This document shows positions 22,223 to 62,490 of a stretch of DNA of 64,000 bases, in pieces. Under the pieces are notes generated by a model. The model had not been told where the DNA came from and did not search any database. It saw nothing but the letters and a program-made list of their open reading frames with translations. The stretch covers positions 6,014,001 through 6,078,000 of the forward strand of contig OZ024747.1 of the NCBI GenBank assembly GCA_964016885.1, written 5' to 3'. This stretch comes from Eledone cirrhosa. Lineage: Eukaryota. How positions within the stretch are numbered: the first letter of the stretch is position 1; each line of letters opens with the position of its first letter. The position numbers were made by a program, and so were the translations under genes.

Positions 22223-22282
<60 letters not shown>

Positions 22283-22347
22283 GTTATTCCGGGTTGAATC
22301 GGAGGTAACCACAGTAAGTAAGGTACTCAATACATTGCAGAGTATAA

Positions 22348-22474
22348 AAGTTTTAATATAGATGAGATTCTACAAGACTAGAACTGTTTCATTCTTTAGA
22401 AATCATCAGGAATCTGATGATTTCTAAAGAATGAAACAGTTCTAGTCCTGTAGAATCTCATCTATATTAAAACT

Positions 22475-22475
<1 letters not shown>
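22348..22475. repeat. Near-perfect palindrome with a hammerhead-like core on each strand
   Basis: Arms of about 60 bp around ..GTTTC-ATTCTTTAGAAA-TCATCAG-GAAT-CTGATGA-TTTCTAAAGAAT-GAAAC.. Confidence 0.9.
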
Positions 22476-22505
<30 letters not shown>

Positions 22506-22999
22506 ATATTAAATAAATGGAAACTAAATTTATAAAACCATATTTATTCTATTATATATATTTCAAGGGTACCAAAAGTTTTGGTACGCTATCATCAGAT
22601 AAAATAGGAAGTGTGTTTTATAAATTTTGACATAACCAAGGATAAAATACCTTAACGGTTCAAGTTATCCATGGATAGTAAAGGGAAGAGAAGAAAAGTC
22701 AGATATTTCAAATTATTAAGATGAGTATGCAAATGAGTTTTATGTAAAAGGGTTGAAAAAAAAAACGTTATTTTAGACGCTATGGAAAATTTAAATAATT
22801 ATAAGTTATTGTATGCGTAGGAAAGAAGAGAAAGGAAGAGGGGCTAGCATTTACGTTAATTTGGGGGAAAAGATTTATTTACCTATATTATGAGTTATAA
22901 TATTGTATATATAATCAATTAGAATTATATGAAGAATTATGGTTGTAAGTATTTTTATCTTATTACATTAGGATAGCTTATATGTATATATTATATATA

Positions 23000-23185
23000 T
23001 GTGGATTGGCAGTATCGGTAGAGGGTCGGACGCCATGCTTTCCAGCATAGTTACGTCCCTTTACGATCTGAGTTCAAATCCCGCCGAGGTTGACTTTGCC
23101 TTTCATCCTTACGGGGTTGATAAAATAAAAGTACCAGTAATGCACTGGGTAATTGCTGGCCTTGTGCCTAAAGTAGAAACAATTA
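23000..23185 (+). mobile_element. SINE family A copy
   Basis: Same sequence as 21669-21860. Confidence 0.85.
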
Positions 23186-23216
23186 TATATATAAATAAAT
23201 TGCGTATGTATTAGTT

Positions 23217-23263
<47 letters not shown>

Positions 23264-23502
23264 GGAAAACGAAGAATCAGTGATGCATCGGAACACAATT
23301 TATTACGTATTACAATTGTTTCTCCGGTGAACAGCTCGAGGTGCGATCTATTTGTGGATCGAACCTGACTCTGGATTCGCAAGTTCCTCAGATACATCTA
23401 GTGATTTCGAGGCAAATTCTCATTTTTAAAAATACGTTTGTTTCTGTCTGTATGTGTGAGTGTTATATATATAACCCCCCCCCCCCCGTGTAAGTGTGAG
23501 TG

Positions 23503-23535
<33 letters not shown>

Positions 23536-23711
23536 CCCCCCTCTCACTCTCAAGAGCGTGAAACTAATAAACCTTTGTTCGTACTGCCTCTCTGTTTTGT
23601 TCCCGTTCCATTTTTCACTATATATATATATATAACGAAGGAAGTGTGGTAAGGAACCAGGTGGACCATAACGCACCAAAGTACTCAATACTTGAGGTAG
23701 TAGAGTGGGTA

Positions 23712-23815
23712 ATAGGAACCAGTAAGACCCCGACAGCTGAGCTCAAGCCGTTTCGACAGCTAATTAGCCGTCGAAACGGCTTGAGCTCAGCTGTCGGGGT
23801 CTTACTGGTTCCTAT
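23712..23815. repeat. Near-perfect palindrome of about 104 bp
   Basis: ATAGGAACCAGTAAGACCCCGACAGCTGAGCTCAAGCCGTTTCGAC-AGCTAATTAGCC-GTCGAAACGGCTTGAGCTCAGCTGTCGGGGTCTTACTGGTTCCTAT. Confidence 0.95.
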
Positions 23816-24001
23816 ATATATATATATATATATATAGTGACGAAACATAAGTCAATTGCATGAACTCATAATCCTTTATTTACTGCTATATATATTTCGA
23901 TGATAGCCATTGAATGGCTATGACCTCATCAAGCAGTTAGTCAGTTCTTAGATATGCCAGCTCTGTGTTTTTGGTGTTGATGGTTTCAGAGCCTTGGGAC
24001 A

Positions 24002-24034
<33 letters not shown>

Positions 24035-24125
24035 GTAGGTCGTATGTGAATCGCGATGATCACGTCTGACCTACCAAATATGTGACGGTAGCTAGTTAAG
24101 CTCTATGCGTATACGCAGAGCAGAA

Positions 24126-24449
24126 ATATTAGTGAAAAAGAACAAAGGAACTATTATGACATTATAACAAGTTTATTGCCGACAGCCGTTTCGTCCGACC
24201 ATATGGTGCGACTTTTCAAGGCATATAAGATGTGATTGTAAGATCATTGTTTACATCAACGTATCACTCAAGGCTAGCAGTTTGAAATTATGGTATACAA
24301 ACTGCTAGCCTTGAGTGATACGTTGATGTAAATAATGATCTTACAATCACATCTTATATGCCTTGAAAAGTCGCACCATATGGTCGGACGAAACGGCTGT
24401 CGGCAATAAACTTGTTATAATGTCATAATAGTTCCTTTGTTCTTTTTCA

Positions 24450-24456
<7 letters not shown>
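24126..24456. repeat. Long inverted repeat, arms about 160 bp with a loop of about 13 nt
   Basis: Arms read as near-exact reverse complements; each holds TTGAAAA-GTCGCACCATATGGTCGGAC-GAAAC. Confidence 0.95.
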
Positions 24457-24481
<25 letters not shown>

Positions 24482-24578
24482 ACACTCACACATACATACA
24501 GAGACAAACGTATTTTTAGAAACGTTGAGCGGATATGAATGATAGTTTAACAAGTTGGGCATATCAGCTCCAAACGAC

Positions 24579-24625
<47 letters not shown>

Positions 24626-24646
24626 CGGGTAAAATTCCCGAGATCC

Positions 24647-24673
<27 letters not shown>

Positions 24674-24677
<4 letters not shown>

Positions 24678-24890: not shown

Positions 24891-24925
24891 ACACACACAT
24901 ATATATATATATATAGCGAGAGAGA

Positions 24926-24963
<38 letters not shown>

Positions 24964-25898
24964 TCTATATATGTATAGATATAAATATGTAGTATATGAC
25001 CGGTAAGTTTTTTAAAAGCTGGTACAATGCGGTAGAAAATAGGCAGGCCAAATGATGGTAAATGAAACAAAGTAATGTTTTACCCAGTATATTTTGGCAT
25101 ATTTTGGGGCTATTACCCTCTTTTCTTCTGTAACAGTTCCTATATGTTGGAAAATATATGCGCATGCGCGGGGTTGCTATAGTAATCATTCCGCCTCGTG
25201 CCTTTCTTATCTATTTTTTTTTTTTTTTACTTTAATTGGCCGATTGAAAACTCAAATCGTTCGTTTGTCTTATCTAGGAGTTTCAGCTTCATATCTGAAA
25301 AGAGGGTTATAGCTCTGAAATATCATAGACTGAGTAAAATATTACTTTCTTTAGCTTCATTTACCATCATTTACTCCCCTTCGTATTTTCTACCACATTT
25401 AAAAAACTTAGTCATTTACTACATATATCACAATGTTTCGTATTAACTTCTCTCTCTCTCTATAGAGAGAGAGAGAGAGAGAGGGGGGGGGGATAACCGA
25501 GACTGCATCAATGTATATATAAACATGCCAGAAAATAGGAATTTCCCTGTAAATTGAAAGATTTTCGGACCTTGTTAGACTCTCAACAGAAGGCATGTAT
25601 ATCAACCAAACAACCACAAGGAAACACGCATTTGATGGGTTTATATACCCTTTCACTCTTAGTATTATTATAGTGTACTTCTTAATATATATCTTAAGAA
25701 GAGTTAAGTTAACTAATGAAGACATATTTCGTCCTTGGGAGACTTTTCTTGCATTATCAATAACAGGCACCAGAGAAGCCATGTTTCATCTGATTTTCAA
25801 GTAAATTCGGTTTCTTTATTTTTCTTTTTTTTTTCCATATGATTCAAATTTATTTTATTTGTATTAAAATATGTTTGTTTTTCATTTATATTTTGTAG

Positions 25899-26649
25899 AT
25901 ACTTTACATCTAACTTGTCATATCAAAATGGAAAAATACAAATTTTGAAAGCACATCTTAACTGCAATTTTCGTAACACTTTTGTGAACACGTTACAGGA
26001 CAGAGGCCCCGGGGGGTGCAGCACTTGTAACAATTTTTATATTTGTCTTAGTAAAATCAAAAGTAATTTGAAATATAAACAATGCCTGCCCAAATTACGA
26101 AAGGTTTGTAGTTCAGCTAATATCAGGATTGCTAAAGTAATCCGTCTTGAAATGAATTTAGTATCAAATTTACTACAGTCGGATTCAAGCCTGAAGGTTA
26201 TCCATCTTGTTAGAGACCCACGTGGTATTTTGAACTCTCGTTTAAGGCTCGGGAAAGTTAGCCTCTTATCACTTAACGGAAAATCAAAAGTACTCTGTGG
26301 GCAAATATATAAGAATATTATGAAAAGTATTAAACTAAAAGACAATCCAGAATTTAGTGGGAGAATAAAAACGCTTTATTATGAAAATCTTGCTGAAAAT
26401 CCCTTTCTTGTTTCGAAAGACCTGTTCAATTTTCTTCATATTCCATTTACAAAACACGTTGAAAAATGGATACACACAAACATGATGGGAACAAATTCAA
26501 ACAGAGATCCATACGGCGTTGCGCATAAAAATTCCAGTGATCTTGCTCGTAAATGGCGTTTAAGGGTTTCTTATAATTTTACTAAAATTGTGGACGAAAA
26601 TTGTTCTTTTCTGTATAAACTGCTTCCGCAAGGAATCAAAACACCGTAA
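25899..26649 (+). CDS. Carbohydrate sulfotransferase, terminal catalytic exon
   Basis: tttgtAG acceptor matches the phase-2 donor at 21584; IAKVIRL, LKVIHLVRDPRGILNSR (3'-PB motif), YYENLAENP, KWR; stop TAA. Confidence 0.93.
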
Positions 26650-27149
26650 AGATTTTTTTTAAATAAATCATTTCTATTATTATTTCGTTGGTTGTTTATT
26701 CTTCGTGGACTCATTAATGTAAAAAGTCGCCAATCAAGATTCATTTGTTGATAACCGTTGCTTAAATGTACTGGTAATATTGTCATTCATGAATATGTCT
26801 ACCTGTTTTTTATGCAAACATATTTCTGTTTAATAAATCTAGATAATCAGAACATTCAACATATTTTTCTTTGACTATATGTTTACCTAATTAAGGCAGG
26901 ACTCAATAGTGTTGATGTCAATATCCCATCGATCTTAGGGGAAATTTGTTTCAGGGAAACGTAGTATCTCATTACATGCCTTTCAATATTTAAAAGCTAC
27001 AGAGTAACATGTAAAATGCCGGTTGAACAATGAAAAAATATATGAAACACACACCCATCCATGCATGCATTCACACACATACAGGCGCGTACATACACGC
27101 AGATACATACACAATCGAGAAGAAAAAAAAGATTCTACTTGCACCTCCT

Positions 27150-28080
27150 CTCATTTTGACACCCCACCATGAAAACCACAACATCACTGGCAAAAAGGAT
27201 CTGGCAGCTAAAAGAAAATAGACCTGTGACACCACATGGAAAGTGCTTGAAAAGACAACGCGTTACAAAAGCGGAAGCAAGAAATGCTCGCTCTGCGTGA
27301 GAAAAAAGTATCTTACAGGGTTTATACTCATCTGATATATACCTCAACTCAAAGACAGAAGTCTACAGATCTTGCTTGCATCAAAAGGCCCACTTTTTAT
27401 CCAACTGGAAACCCACACCGCAAGGCACCATCTCACCAGACCTCCTGAATTCTCCATGACACTAACCTCCTCTAGAACCCTTCAACGAGCGCACCACAAA
27501 CGCACACAAAATAACGGCTTGTTGAAAGAGACCTTAAGATTACATCATACTACAACCAACGATCACGCTTACGAGCAACCTTCTAATTTTCAGAATTTAA
27601 GTTTGGACAAACATTAATCAGGACACAAGATTTGTGAGTGACTATACATACACACATATATGTGTGTATGTGTGCATATGTATACATGTATCAACGCGCA
27701 CATGTCTGTGGTTTTTAGAATCTTTAATAATTTGTTATATATATATGTGTATAATTATTTGTATTTTTATCTTATATACTTCTACCTTAATTACTTTAGC
27801 TATTTACAAAATAAATGATAAATCAAAAGTTGCCTCCCTCGATCACCCGAGGGGACAAAAAAGCAAAAGCACCTTTAAAAAACTTTAAAAATTAGTCTAT
27901 AAACAGATTTGCCTCCCTTGTTTTAAATATGAAGATCTCCATCGTTTGGAGAGAGAAAAAATCGTCGATGGAAAATGCTTCCCTTTTCATATATCTGTCC
28001 ACGTGCCCGAAGAAGAGGCCAGTTTGAAAGTGCCTCCATCAATATATAGTGGTAGCCATAATTGGACACTGAAACCAATG
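27150..28080 (+). mobile_element. Penelope-like element 3' end (endonuclease C-terminus, 3' region and hammerhead-like end)
   Basis: About 27231-27400 translates TTWKVLEKTTRYKSGSKKCSLCVRKKYL..LNSKTEVYRSCLH, similar to the PLE C-terminal W..L..Y..GSK.C.LC..EK..LNKR.E..C.H; CCGAAGA..GAAAC at about 28007-28075. Confidence 0.6.
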
Positions 28081-28120
28081 GTAGCACATACATGTTAAGT
28101 GTATGAAACTTCGTTTAAAC

Positions 28121-30541
28121 CAGGGGTTCCCAACCTTTTTGTCGTTATCGCCCACTTTTCCACACACAAAAATTCCCATCGCCCACCTGTGCAGTAATTT
28201 TAAGGACGCCAAAATAAAGCATTATTCAGAATGGTTGCTTAAAAAATGAAATATTTATTGAGATGAAATATTGCAAAATGGGGATTCGGAGTTGAAACGT
28301 TATTCAGAAGAGTGAAGTTTTTGATTATTAAATGTTTCTCAATGAAACAAAATTGAAAAATGATACATGTATTAAATGTTCAACAAACTCACCATGTTTA
28401 GTTTTCAGTGTGATCCTTGAGGCTGATGCGACGCAGTTAGTGCAGACACATTTGGTTGCAAACTTGTCAATTTTAATCGCAAGTCTCCTCGTTTGGCTAC
28501 ATCCAGTCCACTTCTGCTTTTAGAAAGTAAAGTACCAACGTGACTGAAACCAGATTCGACCAAGTACAATGTTGGGAAGGCAAGCAAAATTAATTTCAAA
28601 TGCTTCCATAGGTTGGGGTAAGAATTCAATATACTTTGATGATACCACAAGCCTTCTTTGCCATGAAGCCGATATCGCATTGTGGCCTCATTATCATTTT
28701 GCAATTCAATTAGTTCCTCCTGAACGTCGTCCTCGCAATAGACTGCTTGAACTGCAAACAGATTGCTATACCAATTTGGAATATTCAATGTAATAACATC
28801 TTGAAATCGCAATGATTGTAGATAGTCACGATAGATAACGATATCCTCGTCAACCAATTCATCTTTCAAAGAATCCAGTTGTGGAAATTGATGCAATTGA
28901 CGTTTGGAAATGTTTATTTTATACAGGACCAATTTCGAAATGAAGGCGGTGATAAATGATTTACAGTCGACAAGAGTTTTTTGCTTTCCTTGCAACAACT
29001 TAATCAAATCATTAAGTTTAGTGAATATATCGCTCAGAAAAAAAATATCGCACTTTGCAGCAATCAATGAAGCCGACAGAGGAGTACTTTCAAAGAAAGA
29101 TATGATCACATGAAACAGTTCAACAAAGCGAACAACATAGTTGCTCTTTGACAGCCATCGTACTTCGGTATGGTACAAAAGACTAACAAAATCATCATCA
29201 TTATCGAGACACAGTTGACGGAAAATTCGATCAGACAAGGAATTTGGTTTCAGTTTATTCAGTCTTGATAACCAACTGCAGTGCATCATTCATATTTTTT
29301 GCCACTAAATGTTGTCGGTGTATCACACAATGAACTGTTAAAATCTGTTGAGAAATTTCACGCTTTAGGAGAGATGAAAAACCTCTGTATCTCCCAACCA
29401 TGGAAGGGACCCCATCAGACGTACAGGCAATAATTTTGGTCAGTGGGATATGATGTTCAGAAAGGAAACGCTTAAGCATATCGAAAATAGATGTACCTTT
29501 TGAATCAAGCAGCAAGTTCTCTGTGAACAGCATTTCCTCACAAGGTTAAAGGTATCCATTGAAATATCGAACATACACCATCATCAAACATTGGTCATCT
29601 ATAACAGTTGACTCATCCACTTGTATAGAAAATTCAGAACACTGGAGAATTTACATGAGTTGATGTTTGACATCGGTGGCCATTTCATCTATTCGTCGAG
29701 AAATTGTATTGTTACTAAGTGGAATTTTCTTGATAATTGTGTCGGACTTCTCGTGCATTACAGTCGACAGAACTTCTTCAATGACAGGTCGAAGCAATGT
29801 TTCTCCTATAGTGTGAGACTTCCCAGTCTTTGTGACCAGTAATGCAATATTGTACGACGCAATCATACCGTCATTTTCCTATACAGTTGCTTCCCTAAAC
29901 ACCGTGTTCAGTGTTTTCCGCTTTTCGAAAGAGGCCTTAAGTTGCAAAAAATATGACAACGGTTTGTCTTTTTTGTCAGAATGCTTGGAATGAAAATGAT
30001 ATTTCAAGCGTGATGGCTTCATGGCTCAAAGTTTGCTGGCATAGAAGACACATGGGTAATTGACAGTTCTGAGGAGAAGCAATAAATCCATATGATAAAT
30101 AATCAATACTGTACTGGCGACAAGATTTCTTTACCGGAGGCATCAGGGAAGTTAAAATTCGAAAAAAGAATTGAGAGGCGGAATCGGCGAAGGCAGAAAT
30201 TCACGATGCTCGACAACAGCAGTGTTAACACGTTTTACCGTTGGTCTTGCGTCATCACCTGCTTTAGCTTACCGATGCACGCGTCCAATGTGAGCTGTTG
30301 GGCAGCCGTAAACTGCTAGACATGAATCAGTTGAAAACAGATGAATTACAGTCATACAGCTGGATACTACTTCCTTAGTATAGACTAGGGAAGAGCGAAT
30401 CTGAGCTCTGTGATTACAGCATACCGGCCATTATATGATCAATAACATACTTAATTACCGAAAATCCTTTGTCGCCACCAAAATTTTAGATTGCCCACCA
30501 TTTCCTAAAAATTCGTTCATCGCACAGGTTGTGAAACCCTA
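28121..30541 (-). mobile_element. hAT (Buster/Charlie-type) DNA transposon, complete ends, decayed transposase
   Basis: TIRs CAGGGGTTCCCAACCT / AGGTTGTGAAACCCTA; 8-bp TSD GTTTAAAC / GTTTATAC; internal ZBED8/SCAND3-like transposase fragments. Confidence 0.92.
28405..30110 (-). pseudogene. Frameshifted Buster-type transposase
   Basis: Motifs MKPSRLK.HF, K.HTIGETL, IPLSNNTISRRI, TSDGVPSMVG, HCVIHRQHL, HTEVRWLS, FPTLYLVESGFS, RGDLRLKLT, HQPQGSH spread across several frames. Confidence 0.9.
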
Positions 30542-32622: not shown

Positions 32623-33384
32623 TTATAGTTCAGATTTGTGATCTCTCTCTGATGTGAATAATTTCCAAACTCTCTGATATTCTTCTGCGACTTCCTTGGC
32701 TGTGGGTCGTAGATGTGGTTCATCGTGTTGACACTGGTTGTGCATGTGAAGCAGATGCAACTTCAACACGACGGCATCTGAAGAAAAGCCCAACAAATAA
32801 CTACACACACTTGGTATCTTCCAAATATCAGATTTCTCATCATAAGGTGGCATGTCATCGTCGGAAAATTCCCTCTCTGGATAGGGCCACAACTGCTCAG
32901 GAGCCACAAACTCACCCCCAATTTCTCGATGACCACATTTGATGAACTGGTTCTGTTTGTGGTTCACTTCAGGAAGAGCATCAAGGTCATTGATGACCAA
33001 TCGGAGGTCAGAACGCAGCAAGAACTGACTGAGGGTTTTGTTTAAGTCATTAGAATCACACATTACTCGTGTACCAAGTGGACTGGAGTGCAGATAGGTA
33101 AGGATGTTTACATAATCCATACACAGCTGGTAGCGCAGTTGGATCGTATCGTGTAGCATGTATTCTTTGGATTCAAGGAGGTGAAACAGGTGGTTGGCAG
33201 ACTTGAGTGGATGGAATTCAGTTAGATAATATTTGTCACAATGACCAATCAACTGGATTACATGAGGGTGAGGCTGGAATGCTGTGATCATAGTCAAGCC
33301 ATGTTGAAAATCTAACAGATATTCATTTTCTCCAATAGCTTCATTCATAATAAAGGTGTGGTTCTGCCAATGAGCTTCATACAC
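32623..33384 (-). CDS. POMK: Protein O-mannose kinase (SGK196), last coding exon
   Basis: ctacAG acceptor; LTEFHPLKS, YLHSSPLGTRVMCDSNDLNKTLSQFLL, NDLDALPEV, KCGHRE..GEFVAPEQLWPY, YDEKSDIWKIP are characteristic POMK motifs. Confidence 0.95.
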   Translation of the reverse strand: MYEAHWQNHTFIMNEAIGENEYLLDFQHGLTMITAFQPHPHVIQLIGHCDKYYLTEFHPLKSANHLFHLLESKEYMLHDTIQLRYQLCMDYVNILTYLHSSPLGTRVMCDSNDLNKTLSQFLLRSDLRLVINDLDALPEVNHKQNQFIKCGHREIGGEFVAPEQLWPYPEREFSDDDMPPYDEKSDIWKIPSVCSYLLGFSSDAVVLKLHLLHMHNQCQHDEPHLRPTAKEVAEEYQRVWKLFTSERDHKSEL

Positions 33385-34186
33385 CTGTAGATAGAAAAAA
33401 ACCCAGAAAAATTAATGAAAAATAAATTAAATGAAATTCCATAATTAATTCTATTGAAACATTATTTCAATTTAATTAATGAAGAATTTTGAGGTATTTA
33501 TTAATTATTTAATTACTAAAATAGTAACTTAATGTATGGTTCTTATATAATCATATTTTGGGAAGATTTTAATCTAAATAAAATTGGTAGTTTTGCTTCT
33601 TAGAACCAGAGCCAGATTCGGTCAAGTTGCAATCAAAAGGGTTAAATAGGAACCCTTTAAAATGGGTTTTGTTTCATGGAACCAGAGCTGGGTTGGTTTT
33701 AAAATGGTTAATGATGAATTTTGAAAGAATTACTAAAATTATTATTTCATTACTAAAACAGTATCTTGACATATGATTCTAATATAAAATTATGTTGGAA
33801 GGATATTTAATTTAAATGGGTGTGGTTTATCATGGCACCAGCACTACCACTTTAAATATGTGTGTGTGTATTTGTTTCCATACTAACATGCTCAATTGTT
33901 CTGAAAAATTTAGGCACCAACTTCCACTCCAAAAGAAAGTTTTTTTTGTGGTTATATAATTATCTTCACCCTTATGACAAGTTAGCTGTGAGATTGTTTT
34001 TCAAAAAATCAAAAAAAAAAAACCCAAAACCAATGGGTGACATAAGTAAGATATGTGTGACTTACCTATGAAAGGTTGCTTTAAACCTCAAATCCAGCTG
34101 GCCCCTATAATCCAGAAAGTTTACCTTTCTTGACACATAGTTACTAAGGCTGACTTCAATGAAAAATTTCAGAATATTTCATTTAC

Positions 34187-34459
34187 CATTTTGCTAAGTC
34201 CAGTAGCAATGCTGTGTCCAGTGGTAATCTCAGTATCAAAAACTTCACATGTGAGCCATTGGTGGCAGGATTCCATCCCAATAACTGCAAAATAACCAGC
34301 AGGACAAGTGGGACGACACACTTGCTTGTTAAGTAAGATATCTTGGTAGCAGAGTTGTAAACGAGGAGGTTCCGGTAATATTGTTTGACCATGGCCAGTT
34401 TCTTCTTGTAGAAATAATAGCAGCAATATATACAGACCACTTGTGACAGTAGGGAACAT
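34187..34459 (-). CDS. POMK: POMK first coding exon (hydrophobic N-terminus, CPAGYF..C..WLTC)
   Basis: ATG directly after a ttccAG acceptor; GTAAAT donor, phase 0, joins GLSKM to VYEAHW. Confidence 0.9.
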
Positions 34460-34549
34460 CTGGAAAAACCAAAGAAAATAACATTTGCTGCAATAAGATG
34501 AAGAATTTAAGTCTCCACTGCCACATTCAACAATAAAACTTGTAACAAG

Positions 34550-35012
34550 TATGAGGGTCAGCTGAAAAGTTCATAGGCTGACCAAGATACTCTCACGGAC
34601 TATGACCAAATGAGGTTTATTTTTCAACATAGTCCCCCTTGCGGTCCACACACTTCTTTCTTTGGTGTTGCAACGCTTGGATCATTTGGTGAAGAAGCTT
34701 TTTTCCTGTTGGTGAAAATATCATCAACAGCAGATACGTCATCTCTGTGATACTGGTTCCCAGCCAAGTGTTTTCTCATGTTGGGGAACAGATGATAGTT
34801 AGATGGGGCCAAATCAGGAAAATAGGGAGAGTGATCAACCAGTTCAAAGTCAGTCACACACTGCAGTCATTGAAATCAAGAACTCGTGGGCTAGAGCATT
34901 GTCCTGATGAAACAAGACACTTTTCATCAGTTTTCCTGGGCGTTTGGCCATGACAGCCTTTTGTAACTGCATTATCAGGTTGGCATACTACTCTCCATTG
35001 ATGGTGTGGCTC
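34550..35012 (-). mobile_element. Mariner transposon 3' fragment in POMK intron
   Basis: HSPYFPDLAPSNYHLFPNMRKHLAG (YSPDLAP.D motif); terminus TATGAGGGTCAGCTGAAAAGTTC, similar end repeated at about 40507-40590. Confidence 0.85.
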
Positions 35013-36523: not shown

Positions 36524-38759
36524 ACCTCTCCTATTATCCTTCTCCATCTGTTTTATTTTGATCGATATAAATGTCATCCGACTGTGCAGTTTAATGCATT
36601 ATTTCATGCTCGATACGAATATTTGTTTAGTTCTTTCGTTTTGTTTCTTATTTAACAGTAGAAAATCCTCGTTTATTACGTGACCGACGTCGTAAATTTT
36701 ACGATTTATTAAACAGCCACGTTCTACACGTGTATAATATAATTAAATTTTGTTCTTCTCTCATATAATTATTCATTTTGTTTTCTAAAACTACTACTTA
36801 TATGTGATGATTATTACTATAATATCGTTTTATTTTCATGTGTATTCATTGTAATCGAATGATATCGTTTATAATAAAAGCTAGATTCAACGCCTAGTAA
36901 TTTACACCTAACCTATAGGAAGATTTTTTTTTGTTCTTACGAAAATATCCTAATATGGCAGACAAATTGGCGATTAATTTTACTTTCGAAATTTGTAATG
37001 AATCTTGGTGTTTAACACAACTGGTAATCGTTTTAAGATCATGGATAACTTCCATTTATATGTCGAGATATACGTATATAATGGTCGTTGACTTGAATCC
37101 AAGCAAACCACATTCTTGCAGTTATTAGCTGGTATCAAATCTTAGCTTTATTGTCATGGGGCCTTAGTTAACTATTGCTCCACATCTTTTACCATGTGTA
37201 TATATATATACTCTTTAACATGTTCCGGCTGAGGTCATGCTGGGGCACCGCATGTATATATCAAGATTAATATAGAAATGGCTTTTACGGGATTAGAACT
37301 GTTTCATTCAAAATAAATCGGGAATAAAGAAGCCATTTCTATATTAAACATGATGTTTACACTATTAATGTATTGATTGCCTGTGGTTATCCACGATTGA
37401 ACCCGGGACTCGCGTATGTGCATGATCAGTTTATTGTCGCCGCCCTCTCCACCTAACTTTCCTCAATGTATATCTTGCACAAATATATGGTTTTCAATGT
37501 AGATTACGATTATGGTGGCTCATTTTCACTCAGAAGTTGTCTGATTTTAAAACGGATTACCGTGCACATCTGGTTGTTTGGTTCGATATTCAATTAAAAT
37601 TCTGGGGTTTCTCTTAAATCGGGTCTCTAAATGATTTGTGAACTTTACTATTTGTTTCTCATAATTTATCATTTCGTTCACATGCTTTATAACGCTATAT
37701 CTATATATATATCACACATAAGTATTGTGTAAGGAGCATGGTTTAGTTAGAATGTTGGGCTTGCGATCGTGAGGTGAGTTCGGTTCTCGGACCTTGTGAA
37801 TCGTTGTGTCATTGAGCAAGAAACTTTACTTCACGTTGCTCCGGTTTAGCTGGTGCCAAAGTTGCATGGGGTGGGGTAGGCATGAGTGGTTACCTCCTTC
37901 GAAGAACTTTCATTTTAAAATCGAATGGTCATTTGTGAAGGGGCTCTTTACCCTATAATTCAGTGGAGACGTGAGCATGCTAGAAATAGAAACCAGGTCA
38001 CACTCGTTTTTCCATATTTACACTGAAACACAGTTTATGCAGGTCTTTACAACACAAAGCTTCTTAGATGAAATTATGATGGGAAGTTTTTAAATAAATT
38101 TTGAAATATTTAAATGGGAGTCACTATTATTGAAATATAGTTGATCTACCACGGACCATAGTTCTGTTTGGTCAGTACTCAGGGTAAAACTATAAAATTT
38201 GTACTTTCATTTTATTATACGAAAACATGAAATTTTATGGTTCTCTATGTAGATGTAGTTGATTTCCTACAAGGTTGTGTCCAGTAACAGTTTCCTTTAA
38301 ATGGGGTTCCAATTCACACTTATGTAGATTTAGTTGGCCCCTTGCAATGTATCCCATAAGTTTTTTTAAAGCCGTTAGTTACCAAACCTCTTGAAAGGGT
38401 CTCAAATGGCCAGCAAATGTTTTACGTTCTGCCGTTTGTATTAACTGTATTGTGGATACAGACATGGTTGGCTGTTCCAAGTTCACATTGCAATAATAAG
38501 GTCCTGGGTTCGGTCTGACTGCATCAGTTGTCTTTAGTCAACCTTTGTGGCTGTCATTGTAAGGATTTAGAAAATATCTAAAATCAGATTTGTGAACGTT
38601 TGATGTAATGACCTGAATTCTTAATGAGATTCATATTGCTGTTTGTATCTGGAAACTAATTGCTGGGGGACTGTTATTCAATTTTATATTTATTACCATG
38701 TCCCTTGTTTATTGTGGAGTGTGTGGACCTTGTATTGATTCTACCATAGTGGAGGATCC

Positions 38760-46705: not shown

Positions 46706-47311
46706 GGCAATTAAGACTACCAACTACCTAAACTTAACATAAACAGATCTACTATAATATCAATATTTCTCTAACACACTGTCTTGTAATCTGAGACACT
46801 CCACTGATGCTTACCACATAGAACATGTGGAAGCTTTTCTTTCTGATTCCCCGTCTTGCTAAGCACACAGATATATATATGTGTGTGTGCTAAGAGGTAC
46901 TGCTATAGAAAACAATATAAAAGCCAACCTACATATATATATATAGATATACAAATATAATTTCAGCAAGATCATATTTTGGCTGTGATCAAAAACAAAG
47001 CGAAACGCAATTTTTTAGATATGCGGCAAGCGCTCAATGGACTAAAAGAAGACCAGAGCAATTAACATACATTATAGAGGCCAAACAAACTGAAAACGGT
47101 GGTCATGAAGTTATCAGCCGCCGGAGCCAAAAAAACGAAGCAAGCTAAACAGGTTAAACAAAGAATTTACCTGGACCTCCTGGAAATTGATGGTTTAATC
47201 CAGTGGGAGATTTCTGTGACACCTAAATCAATTATATTGCCTATATATATATATATATATGTATATACGCATGGTATTGGATACATTTTGTCAAGGCAAT
47301 ACTTACTGATG

Positions 47312-49680: not shown

Positions 49681-51213
49681 CTCTTGCAAATATATATATA
49701 TTTATATATAAGGAAAAGAATTTGAAAATGCACCTGGAGTCTTTTAAGAATATTTATTTACTTTACCGGTTTCACAGTCCTTATGATTTTCAAAAGTAAA
49801 CCTGAGATGGAGGGTTTGTGATTCTATTGTAATTAAATAGTCAAATTTTAAGAGGAATCTGTCTCAAGTTGCTATTTGCTGTATACAGACCTGGAGAATG
49901 ATGGGCTCCTCTATGATTAACTCTTTAGCATTTAAACCAGCCCTATCCAGCCAGAAATCTCTCTCCTGTTTCTGTTCAAACTGGCTGTAACTGGCCATTT
50001 ATACCTACATTAAGGTATTGTTCTCAAAATAAATAACATCAAAATCTTGTAGATTCAATATTATGTGAGATGATATTATGTAAGATAAAGCCTTTACTGG
50101 GAAAATACAATAGTAAATATAGAGTAATGTAAATGCTAAAGGGTTAAATGCCCAAGACTTGCCATATGTCATGGTAGTACCATTCCAACTCCATCAAGAG
50201 TTATGGACCCGTGTTATTACATAGCATGTGGGTGACAGTTTGGAAATTGGTCCAATATGTTCTTAGGATGTGGTCTAACAAAATCTTGACTAAAAACATC
50301 AAAATGCAGGTGTACAGAACTTGTGTACTAAGCACCCTACCCTAGTGAAACATACTCCACATATTCCACCCAAGAAAGGAGATTAAACAGCTTCTATTTC
50401 TATTGCCTCAGATGTATTTTTACCAATTTTAAACTAGTAAGACCATTAGTCAACAGAGTACTCAATACTAGGGAAAGTAGAGTGTAACTATATTAGAAAG
50501 AGTTGGGGCCCAATAGCTGAGCTTTAGTCACCTTAGCTGTTAAAATGGCTAGAGCTCTGCCATTGGGCCCCAGTTCTCTCTTAAATATATATATATATAA
50601 TGCATTACCGACTGATGCGTTATGTCCTTCAGCAAGACACTTTATTTCACGTTGCTCCTTCTACCTGGAGTTGCGACAGATAGATAGTATTAGCAACTGG
50701 AAAGACCAATGGAAACATTGTTTCCTCGGTCCGATTTGACGAAAGTCGATCGATCCTATATATATAAATATATAAATGTATACATTTATATAAATATATA
50801 TGTAAATATATATACATACATGTTCACAAGAAGCACCTAGCCCATACTAGGTTGTAAATGTGGTTGGCATTAGGAAGGGCACCCAACCGTAGAAACTAAG
50901 GCAGAAACAGTTCTGTATGAGCAAGACATGGTCACCTGACCCAACATGACTCAAATGGGATAACCCGTCTAACTCATACTAGCATGGAAACATGAATGTT
51001 CAATGGTGATGATGATGATATATATATATATATATATATATAAGGGTAGTGTGTGTGTGAGTGCGCGCGCAATAAATAAATAAATAACGTGAGAAAAACG
51101 AATCCGCTACAACGGAATAGTGGTTTGTTGGTTGAGAACTGATAACGGAATAGGAATGTCTGTTGACATGCGCAGCATCAACTGTCGAATCTAACCATAA
51201 TAATAGAGTCAAG

Positions 51214-52616: not shown

Positions 52617-52717
52617 TGTAAGGATTCTTTGCCCTATGGTTAAGCTTTTACCGTGTCGATAGCGACTCATTATCGAAACGGTAGAAGCTTAATCGTAGAG
52701 CAGAGAATCCTATTACA
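52617..52717. repeat. Imperfect palindrome of about 100 bp
   Basis: AGGATTCTTTGCCCTATGGTTAAGCTTTTACCGTGTCGATA..TATCGAAACGGTAGAAGCTTAATCGTAGAGCAGAGAATCCT. Confidence 0.85.
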
Positions 52718-52801
52718 CTCTACTTTCTTTAAGTATAGAGTACTAAGTTGAATAATGGTCTTTATTCGTCTTAACTAGTAACATCTCTCTCTCTCTCTCT
52801 C

Positions 52802-53915: not shown

Positions 53916-54058
53916 ATACATATCACTGAGGGTCGATGAAATATCGTTTCCTAGAGATATATAAAACCCCAAGGAACTTAAACATAAGGAGCCTGTTGCT
54001 TGGGGTTTTATATATCCCTAAGGAACGATATTTTATCGACCCGTCAGTGATATGTATA
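53916..54058. repeat. Inverted repeat, arms about 58 bp
   Basis: ATACATATCACTGAGGGTCGATGAAATATCGTT..AAAACCCCAAG / CTTGGGGTTTT..AACGATATTTTATCGACCCGTCAGTGATATGTAT. Confidence 0.88.
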
Positions 54059-54367: not shown

Positions 54368-55243
54368 TTGTATTGTATTGTTACCGTCTTATTCTGCTTT
54401 TGTTGACATTTCTTATATAAATATGAGTTGTGCTGGTTCTCAAAATTAGGACATTTTCATAAATAGATAACTATAGATAGACAAATAGACAGAGGTAGTT
54501 AGATAAATATGTACACGTTTGGATTTAGACCTTGTGGGGTTCCTAATACACACGCACACACAAAATAGACCCCCCCCCCCTCCCTCCAATTTTACATATC
54601 AAAGTTAGCTTTGTGCAAGTAATTAAGTAATTGGAACTGAAGTCATACATACAGGTATTAAATTCAAAAGTTCTAACCATCCTAAAACTAAAAAATCCAG
54701 CTGAGAGCACAAATAAATAACTATGGCCGTCGCTGGTGGGTCCCCTCTCCACTGTAGGGGGCCTGAGGCAATTGCCCCCTTTACTCCCCATTAAATCCGA
54801 CCCTGAATATATATGTAGGTAGCTAGCTATCTTTCTGTTTATTGACCTCTGTTCATCTCTGTTTAACTACCTACCTATCCATCCCTACAGCTATCTTTCG
54901 ATCTATCGTTTTTAGATTATTGGGATTTGAGCTTTTGTTGTTGTTCATGTCCTATGATAGACACATTGGTAAATATATATAACTATAGATTGTCGGTGAG
55001 GCAGACAAATAGACAAATATGTAGGTACATAGGCAGGTAGAGAGAGAGATATAGACATTGAGAGAGAGAGAGAAACAGGAAGGTTGCAGAATGGGTGTAT
55101 TAATGAGGTAGAGATTCGAACTCTTGCTGGAATCTCTACTTCATTAATAAATCATATATATATATAACGAAGGAAATGTGGTAAGGAACCAAGTGGACCA
55201 TAACGCACCAAAGTACTCAATACTTAGGGTAGTAGAGTGGGTA

Positions 55244-55275: not shown

Positions 55276-55303
55276 ATATATAATATATATATATATATAT
55301 ATA

Positions 55304-57260
55304 ATCATCATCACTGTTTTATGTCAATTTCTCCACGCTAGCATGGTTTAGATGGGTTGTCCTGCTTCTGGGCAATGTTAGGTCAGGTGACTGTCTTACA
55401 TATGCAGAACTGATTTTGGCTTGATTTCTACAGCTGGATGCCCTTCCTAACACCAACCTCATTTACAGTGAGTACTGGGTGCTTTCCGTCGTATCACCAG
55501 CACGACCACTTTACAGTATGGACTCAGTGCTCTCTTTGTGTCATCAACAAGACCACCCCACAGTGTGGGCTGGGTGGTTTCTGTCGTGACAGCCACATGA
55601 ACATTTTACAGTGTGGCCAGGGTACTTTTTGCCATGTCTCTATTACGACCACTTTACAGTGTGGGCTGGGCGCTTCACAGGATATATACTTTGTACTGCC
55701 CTTATGGGAGTTGTATGGGAGGATGGGGTGGTGCACACTGTATATATATGCTTCAGTTTCAGCCTGTGCCCGTGGGGAGTCGGGTCTTCTGTATTATTAT
55801 GTAACACCAGAGACCTTGGTCCTGTGTCATTGCCTTTGAGAGGTGCAATTGGGCAAGGTCAGCTTTTATCACCTCATCTCAGCTTTTCTTGGGTCTCCCC
55901 ACTCTAAGGCTCCCATTGATTTTAAGTACTCTGAACCTGTTTATGCAGCTGTCATCCTTCATACATATCACATGTCCATACCAATGCAGTCTCCTCTCCT
56001 GCACACAGCATTTGTCTCCTCTTGTGCCTAGTTTCTCTCTCAGTTCGTTTATGCTTCGCCGTTCTCGTATATTACTATTACACATCCATTGAAGCATGCA
56101 AGCTTCATTTCTTTCCAATCTATGCAAGTCTTCTTCACCCAACGCCCAGGTCTCACTACCATGCAACATTGCTGTTTTATGCACACGTAAAGTCTGCCTT
56201 TCATTTTGAAGGAAAAGCCTTTTGCAGCTAGCAGTGGCAGTAGCTCCCTGAACTTCTTCCATCCCATTCTTACTCTGGCTTCTGTACTTTCAGAACACCC
56301 ACCTCCACTGCTAAGTTGGTCACCTAGGTAGCAGAAGCTGTCTACTGTTTCTACCAAGCCCTCCCAGAATTTGATAGCGCTTGTTTCCTGTGGTTGTTTG
56401 CTGCTTACTGTCCCGGTGTAGCTGTTACATGTAAAGCCTACATTCTTAGCTAAACTTCCTGAGATCCCATTACATCTCTTGTGTACCCATAGTTTGCATT
56501 TGGAGCAGAGGATGGAATTTCTACCTACACCTTTCCTACACACTGAGCAAGGCCATCTCCCTGAGTGGATCAGGGTTCTGTTTTCTCTTCTACTTATTAG
56601 GACCTTAGTCTTTATCAGGTTGTCTTTAAACCCTTTGTTTTTAGACCCTGTTTCCATGTTTGGAATTTTTTCTCTAGTTACACCATAGATTCCACTATGA
56701 GTGTAAGATCATCCATGTACAAGAGTTCCCTTGGGCTGCCAGTCATAAACTCCACTGTTATAGCCTGTAGTATGATGATAAACAGGAGATGGTTAAGAAC
56801 AGAGCCCTGGTGGATGCCAACCTGTATGCTAAATTCCTCTCTATAGTCATTACTAACCCTAACTTTGCAGACTGCTCTCCTATACATGGTTTGTACAGCC
56901 TTCACAAACGATTCATCTACTCCTAGTTTTCTAAGAGCCCACCAGATTATGGCATGGGGCATTCTGTTGAAAGCTTTTTCCAGATCTACAAACGACACAT
57001 AGAGCAGTCTACTTTTAGCTAGGTACTTTTCCCGCAATTGCCTCGCATGGAAGAGAGCATCAGCGGTGCCTTTGCCTGTCATAAATCCGAACTCTATCTC
57101 GTCTAGATTTACACGGCCCACAATCAGCTGTGTCACAACTCTTTCTGTTACTTTCATGACCTGGTCCATCAGTTTTATACCTCTATAGGTTCCTCTATCC
57201 ACTACATCTCCTTTACCCTTGTAGCAATTGACAATGCTACTACTGCGCCATCTAGTATTA
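55304..57260 (-). mobile_element. RTE-clade LINE, 5'-truncated, with RT, Cys-rich insert and 3' UTR
   Basis: CYKGKGD..YRGIKL, FVDLEKAF, GIHQGSVL..LLF, ELLYMDDL; WPCSVCRKGVGRNSILCSKCKLWVHKRC; RRLHWYGHV; GRPKK; ends in (TGA)n tail near 55304. Confidence 0.92.
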
Positions 57261-57329
57261 CTTGGTTTACAATACGTGGGGTTATGGTGTAACTGCAATA
57301 CATGTGGTTGTATAACAATATCTTTCACG

Positions 57330-57460
57330 CATTTTCAGATAAGAGATCTTGCAAAACAATATAAAAACAAAGCATATGTATATATATATATATATACAGT
57401 GTGTATATATATATATGCTTTGTTTTTGTATTTGTTTTACAAGATCTTATCTGAAAATGG
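57330..57460. repeat. Palindrome centred on a (TA)n tract
   Basis: CATTTTCAGATAAGA(GA)TCTTGCAAAACAA..AAAGCATAT / ATATGCTTTGTTTTTG..AAGATCTTATCTGAAAATG. Confidence 0.85.
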
Positions 57461-58519: not shown

Positions 58520-59690
58520 CCAGTCCACAGTGTAAAGTTGTCATGTTGGTGACATGAAAAAAGCACCCAGCCCGCACTGTAAGGTGGTTATGTTGATGAC
58601 ATGATAACAAGCAGCCAATCCACACTGTAAAGTGGCAGTGTTGGTGCTCTGATAAAAAGCACTCGGTCTGCACTGTAAATGTGGTTGGTCTTTAGGAAGG
58701 GCATTCAACCATAGAAACCAAGCCCAAATCAGTCCTGTATGAGCAAGACATGGTTGCCTGATCTGACTTGTCTCACAACAGGACAATGGTAATGATGATG
58801 ATCATCATCATCACCATTTCACATCCATTTTTCCACGTTAGCATGGGTTAGACAAGTTTCCTGTTGTGAGACAAGCCAGATCAGATGACCATGTTTTGCT
58901 CATACAGGACATGATTTTGGCTTGGTTTCTACAGCAGGATGACCTTCCTAATGCCAACCACATTTACAGAGTGGTTGGGTGATTTTTATTGTGACACCTA
59001 CATAACAACTTTACAGAATGGATGGGTCACTTTTGTCGTGTCACCAAAACCACCACCGAGTCTTCTGTATTACTGCATAACACCAGAGATCTCGATCCTG
59101 TGTCATCGTCTTTGAGAGGTGAAATTGTGCAAGGTCTGCTTTTATCACCTCATCCCATGTCTTCTTAGGTCTTCCTACTCCATAGCTTCCATTAACTTTG
59201 AGCACCCTGCACTTTTTTATACAGCTGTCATCCTTCATACACATTACATGTCCAATCCAATGCAATCTTCTCTCCTGCACACTGTATCTGATCCTTCTTA
59301 TGTCCTGTTTCTCTCTCAGTTCACAAACTGTGCAGGTCTCACTACCATGCAACATTGCTGTTCATATACCCGCATTATACAATCTACCCTTCATTTTGAG
59401 GGACAAACCTTTTGTAGCTAGCAGGGGCAGTAACTCCCTGAACTTTTTCATCTCATTCTGGCTACTGTATTTTCAGCACACCCACCTCCACTGCTAATTT
59501 GGTCACCTAGGTAACAGAAACTGTCTACTGCTTCCATGGAACCTTCCAAGAATTTGATAGCCCTTGTTTCCTCTCAGCATTTGTTACTTACCTGTGCAAC
59601 AGCCACATGTAAAACCTATGTTCTTAGCTAACCTACGTGATATCCCACTACATCTCTTGTGCTCCCACAGCTTGCATTTGGGACAGTTAT
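58520..59690 (-). mobile_element. RTE LINE 3' fragment (-, 58801-59690) tail-to-tail with a + strand copy of its 3' UTR (58520-58800)
   Basis: MLHGSET, RRLHWIGHV, GRPKKTWDEV; junction GATGATGATCATCATC at about 58800. Confidence 0.85.
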
Positions 59691-59849
59691 TTGAGGAACT
59701 AAACTATCTTCTCATATTTAGTTACGGCTCTTTGTTCTGGGTTGAAATCCTATTGAGGATTCTTCAAAGATTGATAAAATAACACACCTTTATCCCTCTG
59801 TCTCTCTCTCAATCAGTTTATCTCTGAGGATGTCAGCTGGTCAAAAGAA

Positions 59850-60000
59850 TAATTACTTCTACATTTGGCACAAGGCCAGCAATTACCCAGTGCATTACTG
59901 GTACTTTATTTTATCGACCCCGTAAGGATGAAAGGTAAAGTTAACCTCGGAGGGATTTGAACTCGGATCATAAAGAGCCGTAACTCTATTCTGCAAAGCA
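59850..60000 (-). mobile_element. 5'-truncated SINE family A copy
   Basis: Reverse complement of the family A body; flanked by a long direct repeat. Confidence 0.8.
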
Positions 60001-60184
60001 TATAATACACCTCTATCCCTCTCTCTATCTCTCTCAATCAGTCTCTCTGACGATGTCAGCTGGTCAAAAGAAACCATATTAACATGTGCGAGCTTTATAA
60101 ACTTCAATAATTCCATAGTCACAAACAGGATTAAGTCTGAAGCAGCAGTTTTTGTGAACTGTTTATTAATGGATGTGCTTATTA

Positions 60185-60400
60185 TAGGTGTGAGCTGTAA
60201 CAACAGTATGATAGGACTGGGGCCTCTATCATAAAAACATCCAAGAAACTTTCTATGAGATGCGACCTCATAGGAGGCCAGCTAAAAATTCATAGGTGTG
60301 AGCTGTAACAACATGGTATGACTGGGGCCTCTATCATTAAAACATCCAAGAAACCTCCTATGAGATGCAAGCTCATATGAGAACAGCTAAACCGCCATAG
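60185..60400. repeat. Tandem duplication of about 107 bp
   Basis: ATAGGTGTGAGCTGTAACAACA..GACTGGGGCCTCTATCAT..AAACATCCAAGAAAC occurs twice. Confidence 0.85.
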
Positions 60401-61952
60401 GTAGGAGACTGAAGTGCAAGAAATTTGATAGAATTGCATGAAAAAGACCAGATGTCTATAGACTATAAAATTCCAAAGTGTAACATGCACTTTCAGCAGA
60501 TATAATCAGTAATTGAAATATGTTAGCAGACAATGTACCTGTTGAACCTGCACCAACTGATGTTTACTGGCAGTATTTATATGAGACAATCTGTAAAACA
60601 GCTGTTGCCTTGGCTTCCCCAAACATGCTAAGTATGCCAACTGGTTTCATAAGAATGATGGGAAGATATAACAACTGTTATTTGAGAAATGTAAATATCA
60701 TTAAACTACTCTAAATAGATGAGGAACTACAGCTGTTGAAGAACTGATGGTGGGATCAACCGGAATTCAGACCCTTGATTCCCTTTGAGAGAGGTTTATG
60801 GTCCCTAGAAAGGTGGTAATGCACTGACAGAGTAAGGATATTTCACACCTCCACATTGCAATATGAAGGCTTTTTGTGTTAGTCTGAGAGGTTTACTGTC
60901 CCCAGAGAGGTGGTAAAGCACCAGTAAAGAGTAAGGAGGGTTCACACCTCAACACAGCGGAAAGGGCTATCATGAAGCACTGGCAGGAATATTTTAGGGA
61001 GCTACTAAACTGACTAAACAATTTCTTGTGAGGTTATACAATGTAATCCAACAACTTTGAGAAGATATCAATGTGAATCTACCACCATGTATGGTAACTG
61101 CTACCAATGGGACAAAATTCAGTAAAGTTCCTGATGTTGACAACATTCCTACTGATATCTATAAATATGGTGGAAAGGAATTGTGCTAAATATAGTTGCC
61201 ATTTATAAAGGTGACTGACAGGACTGGGGAAATTATTGAGGAATTTACCTTCTCCCATTTTAGCAGAAATACTTCTCAAATGACTACAAAGAATATCTGA
61301 AAGCCAATATAGATTCTATATAGGAACACCAATGAGATGATTTTCACTTCAAGATAAATTCAGGAAAAGGCTGTCAAACACTGACTCCCACCATTTGTCA
61401 TATTCAAGTTTATAAAGGATTTTGGCTGTGTAGGAATAGAGATCCTGCTTAACCCTCTCATCACCACATTTCTAATTAAATACAATCTATTTTAATTAAT
61501 GAAGAATTTTGAAGGATTTATTAAAGTTATTATTTCATTATTAAGATAGTAACTTAACCCTTTCATGGCCACATTTCAAATGAAATACACTCTATTTTAA
61601 TTCATTAATGAAGAATTTTGAAAGATTTATTGAAATTATTAATCATTTCATTGCTAAGATAGTAATTTAAAGTAAAGTTTTTATATAAAATTATGTTGGA
61701 GGATTTTAATTTAAATTGGAAAACTTTATAATGGGTGGTTTTATTTCATAGAACCAGAGCCAGTTTTGGCTGGCTTGGTAACTAAAGGGTTAAAAGATAT
61801 GGGTGTCCATTACAATTAGTGAAAATAATCAGGTAGTTCTACAGTAATATCTCTTACAATGTCCCCTGGGAATGACATTTTCTTCTTTCCAGTTTCCTAT
61901 AGAGTAAAGCAGGGCCCTATGCTCATTCCTATGTTATTTGCATTATTTCTGA

Positions 61953-62490
61953 GTGGATTGGCAGTATCGGTAGAGGGTTTGACGCCATGCTTTGCAGCAT
62001 AGTTACGGCCCTTTATGGTCTGAGTTCAAATCCTGCCGAGGTTAACTTCGCCTTTCATCCTTATGGGGTCGATAAAATAAAGTACCAGTAATACATTGGG
62101 GGTAATTGCTGGCCTTGTGCCAAAAGTAGACAACAATTATTTCTGAGTGCTGCATTTGAAAACTTAGCAAGTAAATTCACAAAATGTTCATTACTTAATC
62201 AAATACAATGTATTTCATTAGAAATAGGTGTATATATCCATATGTGGTTGACAGCTGAGAGAAAGGAGTACTCAATACCGAAGTAGAGTTTAAACATCCA
62301 TTATTATTTGGCAGTATCGGTAGAGGGTCGAACGCTATGCTTTGCAGCATAGTTACGTCCCTTTACGGACTGAGTTCAAATCCCGCCGAGGTTAACTTTG
62401 CCTTTCATCCTTACGGGGTCGATAAAATAAAGTACCAGTAATATACTGGGTAATTGCTGGCCTTGTGCCAAAAGTAGAAACAATTATTAT
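61953..62490 (+). mobile_element. Two SINE family A copies (61953-62140 with TSD ATTATTTCTGAGTG; 62308-62490)
   Basis: Family A body sequence. Confidence 0.85.

What the first reader, a model, noticed from the sequence alone, without database searches (positions are those of the whole stretch)
22280..62295. Recurrent hairpin motif GTACTCAATAC-N(4-9)-GTAGAGT heading otherwise unrelated palindromic modules near (TA)n tracts
Seen: the motif occurs at 23681-23706, 50458-50483, 55213-55238, 62268-62289, on the minus strand at 52717-52743 (GTACTCTATAC variant), and degenerately at 22323-22343 and about 37345-37360. It folds as ACTC-AA-TAC/loop/GTA-GAGT, with conserved stems and a loop that varies in length and sequence. 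In four cases it is followed almost immediately by a long palindrome (22348, 23712, 50497, 52617) whose arms differ between sites. Inference: a structurally conserved cis-element shared by divergent families of small mobile elements, such as an RT/endonuclease recognition signal or small structured RNA, probably tied to Penelope-like termini. I do not recognise it as a described motif.
Basis: partly seen in the sequence, partly recalled or inferred. Interest (0 to 1): 0.8.

Follow-up and report, generated by a model that had tools for sequence, protein, structure and literature searches.

The report
Twin RNA hairpins set Penelope ends
The repeated motif is one of two matching hairpins at the front of Hydra-group Penelope jumping genes, each lying a few bases past one of the two places where inserted copies end, and the pair likely tells the element's reverse transcriptase where to start copying, which would explain the palindrome-plus-tail shape of the insertions.

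Summary
The motif is real: 52,856 exact copies genome-wide, 0 for the reversed control. Read on the opposite strand, it is a bulged hairpin (H1) in the one-sided 'tail' of Hydra-clade Penelope-like retrotransposons (PLEs). The palindromes are ordinary truncated head-to-head PLE insertions.

New: the elements' 5' region carries a second copy (H2), seen only at tandem junctions. Consensus: RCUC, a variable inner stem-loop, a 2-nt U-led bulge, GAGY. Of 190 copy ends abutting (TA)n, 180 lie 1-9 nt 5' of H1 or the H2 position, although spacing varies 71-172 nt. Head-to-head insertions use one end of each kind in 30 of 31 cases. The hairpin recurs, with compensatory pairs, in 12 of 14 metagenomic Hydra elements and in published coral and sea-cucumber consensi.

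Likely mechanism (about 0.6, untested): each hairpin docks a reverse transcriptase and fixes an internal start site, so two primings give palindrome plus tail. Against: one family lacks a consensus H2, folding in context is weak, and there is no RNA or binding data. Not found in seven literature searches.

The parts
22323..22343 (-). Hairpin H1 of family B, in the tail (22281-22347) of a truncated head-to-head PLE insertion (palindrome 22343-22480)
   Evidence: family B ORF and tandem junctions
23681..23706 (-). Hairpin H1 of family A, in the 78-nt tail (23635-23712) beside the palindrome 23712-23815
   Evidence: intact tandem elements
24098..24121 (-).
   Evidence: junction and ORF
37361..37382 (+). 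Degenerate H1 in an old family-B insertion (about 37262-37412)
50458..50483 (-). H1 of family D, followed by an imperfect palindrome (about 50497-50585); no ORF partner identified
52717..52743 (+). H1 of family E, beside an imperfect palindrome (about 52617-52711); no ORF partner identified
55213..55238 (-). H1 of family A in a tail-only insertion (55167-55243) between (TA)n tracts
62268..62289 (-). H1 of family C, truncated copy; other copies carry a canonical type I hammerhead upstream; no ORF partner in 30 loci

Best explanation
The motif is the first of two bulged hairpins in the 5' region of Hydra-clade Penelope-like retrotransposons, each lying a few bases 3' of one of the two points where genomic copies end, and each likely binds the element's reverse transcriptase on the RNA and fixes an internal start site just 5' of itself. 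Shown: the two hairpins, their conservation, the end points beside them, and the use of one end of each kind per head-to-head insertion. Inferred: a read-through tandem transcript is bound at H1 and H2; the GIY-YIG domain nicks both strands of a (TA)n target; each 3' end pairs with a UA 3-8 nt 5' of a hairpin and primes cDNA. The cDNA started at H2 includes H1 and becomes the arm with the tail; the one started at H1 lacks it. The two truncated cDNAs then join head to head, giving a palindrome with a one-sided tail.
For: Ends: 180 of 190 TA-abutting ends lie 1-9 nt 5' of H1 or the H2 position in 9 families (160 of 168 without family B's second end), while H1-H2 spacing runs 71-172 nt. Contigs of public runs show TA-rich loose ends at the same two family-A places. 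Pairing: 30 of 31 head-to-head insertions in loci not picked by the motif have one end of each kind, with end types 75:72 overall (P about 1.5e-8). Either arm may be longer: tail arm 14, tail-less arm 11 (up to 1.9 kb), equal 7, of 32. Structure: among 37 hairpins, pair 1 is G-C 25, A-U 11, G-U 1; pair 2 is C-G 34, U-A 2, G-C 1; inner stems vary in sequence and loops run 2-102 nt. The hairpin is found in 12 of 14 metagenomic elements against a mean of 0.2 in shuffles. Strand: a common family-A variant turns an H2 C-G pair into U-G on the ORF strand. Biochemistry of a Poseidon-clade PLE shows two internal RT starts that bound the tail, extension of both DNA strands, and a need for RNA 3' of the starts (PMC11167929).
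Against: No binding, priming or expression data exist for any Hydra element. Family B, which is abundant and has a sharp second end, has no consensus H2, only a candidate 4-bp hairpin with pair 3 flipped, 7 nt from the end. Family L's H2 has an irregular first pair, and neither was recovered by the descriptor. One metagenomic H2 (L286) seems to have a first-pair mismatch and fell under the threshold; L282 and L289 scored under 17. Folding in context is weak: family A z -1.4 with both hairpins in the MFE but only H2's outer three pairs in the centroid; in L283 the outer helices are absent from the MFE. The wobble count is thin: 3 G-U, 0 A-C, 5 other. Of 290 hits, 65 ended away from (TA)n and were not used; 35 read through. 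Pair changes count families, not events: pair 1 changes about 2-3 times on the tree and pair 2 once (quick tree, read by eye). The descriptor weights were set after I had seen the metagenomic loci. Arm asymmetry could arise by later deletion. The Poseidon RNA piece in PMC11167929 Fig. S1 shows no such helix by eye.
Confidence: 0.62

Rival explanations
1. The hairpins work in DNA. The GIY-YIG domain recognises them in single-stranded cDNA or an extruded tandem intermediate and cuts a few bases away, and those cuts set the two ends.
For: Each hairpin can fold on either strand. PMC8557442 section 6 ascribes the tail to endonuclease-mediated resolution. PMC11167929 reports that the D. virilis endonuclease needed the tail for recognition. 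The fixed offset fits a cut as well as a start.
Against: In the one purified PLE, the tail boundaries are RT start sites on RNA. The ORF strand folds more stably in 25 of 28 hairpins, and the wobbles seen favour it. Loops of up to about 100 nt argue against a double-stranded site.
Confidence: 0.17
2. Only H2 sets an RT start. The cDNA folds back and copies itself, and H1 marks where this second strand stops and is joined to the target.
For: It also predicts one end of each kind per insertion. Self-priming at inverted junctions was proposed in PMC3846280. Many centres are nearly symmetric (7 of 32 equal).
Against: A fold-back arm cannot be longer than its template, yet the tail-less arm is longer in 11 of 32, in several cases by 61-1,889 nt. 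Both strands are extended in vitro in the Poseidon element.
Confidence: 0.1
3. The hairpins serve another RNA role (translation start, packaging or hammerhead folding), and the ends are set only by nearby UA dinucleotides.
For: H2 lies about 20-80 nt before the start codon in the families inspected. These regions are AT-rich. The outer helix resembles stem III of some Hydra hammerheads.
Against: The ends track the hairpins, not the many other UA sites, across spacings of 71-172 nt. The hairpin persists where the hammerhead core has decayed.
Confidence: 0.08

Closest known systems
Hydra clade of Penelope-like elements (Craig et al. 2021, PMC8557442; sections 6, 11, 15, 20 and supplement File S7 read)
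   Same: Single ORF with RT and C-terminal GIY-YIG, RW[KR], DKT and CxCX5C motifs, (TA)n targets, partial tandems, inverted 5'-truncated copy and one-sided tail.
   Different: The sections read do not mention a conserved hairpin pair. Tails here are 71-172 nt against the 30-40 bp stated for PLEs. Most families in this genome have a decayed hammerhead core, and several have kilobase 3' regions.
Poseidon element PAc of Anolis (Frangieh et al. 2024, PMC11167929; main text parts 1-2 of 4 and supplements 1 and 3 read)
   Same: Two internal RT start sites bound the tail; both target strands are cut and extended; RNA 3' of the start sites is required.
   Different: Different clade. Starts lie inside the ORF, in an AC-rich stem-loop. 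No conserved or duplicated binding element was defined, and the RCUC/GAGY helix is not evident in the RNA piece of Fig. S1.
L1 twin priming (recalled, no call)
   Same: The second target strand primes internally on the RNA and yields an inversion.
   Different: In L1 the second site is opportunistic and the arms do not overlap. Here both sites are fixed beside a conserved hairpin and the arms cover the same sequence.
Telomerase RNA elements bound by TERT beside the template (RNA side recalled; protein likeness)
   Same: A protein-bound helix fixes where copying happens on an internal template. The family A model is closest to TERT (Z 18.4, rmsd 4.3, 296 aligned, model residues 1-409).
   Different: The element lies 3' of the start, occurs twice, sits in the mRNA itself and has no known sequence relation to telomerase RNA.

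Membership tests
Hydra-clade PLE | One ORF with RT and C-terminal GIY-YIG endonuclease | tested here: met
   about 700-790 aa ORFs with YRDD and C-terminal Y[IV]G in 9 of 9 aligned families; TERT-like fold
Hydra-clade PLE | RWK-type and DKT motifs | tested here: met
   RW[KR] and DKT in 9 of 9 rows of alignment A1
Hydra-clade PLE | CxCX5C linker; CxxC and CxH flanking the endonuclease E/N; no CCHH | tested here: met
   CxCX5C in 9 of 9; CxxC and CxH in the 7 rows that reach them; CCHH not seen by eye
Hydra-clade PLE | Insertion into (TA)n; tandem and inverted copies with a one-sided tail | tested here: met
Hydra-clade PLE | Canonical hammerhead core before the 3' end (an accessory feature shared with other PLE clades) | tested here: inconclusive
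   Strict core in family B and in 5 of 7 metagenomic elements, absent in 10 of 11 families of this genome tested, including A; canonical in family C by eye. Decayed cores sit at the same place.
Hydra-clade PLE | Groups with published Hydra references in an RT tree | not testable with these tools
Hydra-clade PLE (window families C, D, E) | Linked Hydra ORF | tested here: inconclusive
   C: no junction and no linked ORF in 30 loci. D and E: not searched beyond held loci. Assigned by layout only.
Known Rfam RNA family | Match of the hairpin to a covariance model | tested here: not met
   No match over the hairpins in the window or in 9 loci; only microsatellite, palindrome and tRNA hits
Hammerhead ribozyme (the hairpin itself) | CUGANGA and GAAA core around the helix, NUH cleavage triplet | tested here: not met
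   The core lies 40-80 nt upstream with its own stem III; 25 of 37 hairpins close with G-C, which gives no NUH triplet
Non-LTR retrozyme | Short non-coding hammerhead units in tandem | tested here: not met
   Tandem units are 3.5 kb or longer and coding; definition from 10.64898/2026.07.22.740005 part 1

The most novel reading that the evidence does not exclude
Hydra-clade PLEs carry a duplicated RNA docking element, conserved across several animal phyla, that loads two reverse transcriptases on one transcript and programs twin priming from both strands of the target. This would be the cis-acting rule behind the PLE tail and inverted ends, and a portable signal that sets where a telomerase-like RT starts on any RNA.
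Probability: 0.5. Interest if true: 0.8.

Novelty: new variant of a known kind. Interest (0 to 1): 0.62.

Why it matters
How PLEs make head-to-head copies with a one-sided tail is named as open in PMC8557442 (section 15). PMC11167929 found two internal start sites but not the RNA feature that sets them. A short covarying hairpin that occurs twice, once beside each end point, turns this into a direct mutate-and-rescue experiment. It also gives a marker for element boundaries and Hydra-clade membership without an ORF. It may be a minimal signal for directing a telomerase-like RT to a chosen RNA position. The elements themselves, the palindromes and the tail are known.

Tried and rejected
Complex prediction for two copies of residues 1-480 gave no verdict; it is not used either way. 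The RNA run search listed no RNA holder.

A double-hairpin pattern search was swamped by a 58-bp satellite. Junction searches for older family B (0 matches) and family C (8 matches, none followed by a Hydra ORF) failed.

MAFFT misaligned the hairpins, so no covariance model or R-scape-type test was built; pair counts come from end-anchored scripts. A hand-picked hairpin table, including the irregular cases, was left out, so those cases rest on reading by eye.

Pfam found no family in families A and B or in four fragments. Rfam found nothing relevant. One Neptune-like tandem PLE in this genome showed no hairpin scoring 16.5 or more near its junction or end (one family only). The careful tree did not finish.

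Rejected readings: MITE or DNA transposon (the arms are variable truncations of a coding element); the hairpin as a ribozyme; a double-stranded DNA site (loops 2-102 nt); chance.

Not-in-print claim: searches found no description. Repbase, Dfam and most subscription papers were not searchable. The bioRxiv supplements, and supplement 2 and the GenBank file of PMC11167929, were not seen.

Full report
Observation. The genome (3.0 Gb; probably an octopus, a recalled resemblance that I did not test) holds 52,856 exact matches and 0 of the reversed control; a short-loop pattern gives 4,319. The seventh copy is at about 37361-37382 on the other strand.

What the modules are. In 30 genomic copies the motif sits in a short stretch between (TA)n and a palindrome of variable length, or runs on into longer sequence. 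On the reverse strand that sequence includes RT and GIY-YIG coding DNA. A protein search found many intact ORFs, and fetched arrays show head-to-tail units of about 3.54 kb with the motif in the 5' region of each ORF. The proteins carry the Hydra-clade motifs of PMC8557442 section 11. Copies end either before or after a 78-nt tail. This is the known PLE layout of an inverted 5'-truncated copy plus a one-sided tail. Window modules at 22281, 23635, 24025, 37262 and 55167 map to families A, B and F, which have ORFs. Families C, D and E have the same layout, but no ORF partner was found.

The new feature. Just past family A's second end point, in sequence seen only at tandem junctions, lies a second hairpin of the same design with its first pair changed from A-U to G-C. 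I then examined ten ORF-bearing families, about 36-70% identical in the protein pairs compared. H1 was recovered in 9 of the 9 with that region held, plus C, D and E. H2 was recovered in 8 of 10; L has an irregular first pair and B only a candidate variant. The consensus on the ORF strand is RCUC, an inner stem of 1-7 pairs, a loop of 2-102 nt, a 2-nt bulge starting with U (37 of 37), then GAGY. Pair counts over 37 hairpins: pair 1 G-C 25, A-U 11, G-U 1; pair 2 C-G 34, U-A 2, G-C 1; pairs 3 and 4 invariant; inner pairs mixed. The descriptor rewards these letters, so the invariance is partly built in, and one of the 37 (second hit in L282) is doubtful. Background at score 17 or more was 3 in 40,370 nt of element bodies on the ORF strand and 10 on the other. 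A window-wide scan gave 31 hits, 7 of them H1 copies. On a quick tree, pair 1 changes about 2-3 times and pair 2 once.

Beyond this genome. Of 17 metagenomic Hydra loci, 14 hold the 5' region. Twelve of the 14 score 17 or more, six of them twice; shuffles give a mean of 0.2 and a maximum of 1, and no antisense region reaches 17. The score was tuned after I had seen these loci. Of six published consensi read by eye, three have clear hairpins (a coral element and two sea-cucumber elements, one with both H1 and H2), two have variants (coral, copepod) and one is doubtful (Octopus bimaculoides). One Neptune-like family lacks it. Rfam has no match.

Link to the ends. Of 290 distinct junction hits in nine families, 190 end at (TA)n, 65 end elsewhere and 35 read through. 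Of the 190, 180 end 1-9 nt 5' of H1 or the H2 position (160 of 168 if family B's second end is dropped), with modes mostly 3-5 nt, while H1-H2 spacing is 71-172 nt. Distances include the TA microhomology, so the true junction may be a few bases further off. Contigs of public runs give the same two family-A ends. Their common variants fall in the loop of H1, and in H2 in the loop plus one C-G to U-G change. Head-to-head insertions carry one end of each kind in 30 of 31 cases in loci chosen without the motif and 12 of 12 in motif-chosen loci. In 32 such insertions the tail arm is longer in 14, the tail-less arm in 11, and 7 are equal.

Mechanism. PMC11167929 showed for a Poseidon element that both target strands are cut and extended, that RT starts at two internal RNA sites that bound the tail, and that RNA 3' of the starts is needed. 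The Hydra hairpins sit 3' of each end, where such a required element would be. I infer that each docks an RT and that both target strands prime, one at each site (0.62). The predicted structure is confident (pLDDT 93) and closest to TERT, N-terminal part included; a shared fold shows no binding. Rivals: DNA-level recognition and cutting (0.17), a single start plus fold-back (0.10), another RNA role (0.08). Against the best reading stand family B's missing consensus H2, weak folding in context (in isolation the outer helix forms in 28 of 28), thin wobble counts and the lack of any experiment.

What was read. PMC8557442: abstract, passages, sections 6, 11, 15, 20, supplement search hits and parts 52-53 of 59. 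PMC11167929: parts 1-2 of 4, supplements 1 and 3. 10.64898/2026.07.22.740005: part 1 of 5. PMC4209133 and PMC3846280: passages. L1 twin priming and telomerase RNA elements are recalled. Searches found no description of the hairpin pair; Repbase, Dfam and closed papers could hold one. An earlier unchecked note of this scan reached a similar reading of a tail hairpin in another genome; it is not independent evidence, and the lines shown do not mention a second hairpin.

Verdict. These are known elements with a known layout, carrying an apparently undescribed, conserved, duplicated RNA element that predicts both insertion ends. New variant of a known kind; interest 0.62.

Noticed in passing
G000:C1:14234976-14243329 and beyond (L089-L117): A 58-bp satellite array built from a family-A H1 hairpin plus a short TA spacer.
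   Followed up: no
window 47030-47059, minus strand: A consensus-like hairpin (score 18.6) about 100 nt from a short TA tract, not assigned to any family held.
   Followed up: partly
window 27088-27426, plus strand: Decayed C-terminal endonuclease fragment of a Hydra-like PLE, 30-33% identical to families A and G.
   Followed up: partly
window 53930-54042: Another palindrome near short TA runs, with no consensus hairpin detected; possibly a stub of a different PLE family.
   Followed up: no
L246:6065-8500, L252:5570-8100, L244:7464-7583: Families B and F have 3' regions of about 2.5 kb; family B's is full of TA/TG simple repeats that travel with it, and family O's H2 loop holds about 100 nt, partly simple repeat.
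   Followed up: no
L061:6240-6270 and equivalent places in families G, J, K, L, M, O: The hammerhead core upstream of H1 is decayed in most young, active-looking families of this genome, although it is said to be universal in the Hydra clade.
   Followed up: partly
L293:900-5900: A Neptune-like PLE in tandem whose 3' copy ends about 80 nt into the ORF at (TA)n.
   Followed up: partly
L083, L069, L269-L272: Chimeric or back-to-back tails joining hairpins of different families, suggesting template switching or recombination at the shared hairpin.
   Followed up: no
window 25843-26649 (+); 32623-34570 (-); 28405-29289 (-); 55879-57334 (-): Host or other coding pieces: a sulfotransferase exon, a FAM69-type kinase exon, a transposase-like ORF (recalled resemblance, no Pfam hit) and a LINE RT fragment.
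   Followed up: partly
window 2699-8919, 12497-15102, 15120-17657: Long satellites of 31, 38 and 42 bp.
   Followed up: no
PMC11167929 Fig. S1: The Poseidon RNA piece seems to hold a twice-repeated short motif near its start sites; a possible analogue of H1/H2, seen by eye in machine-read figure text.
   Followed up: no
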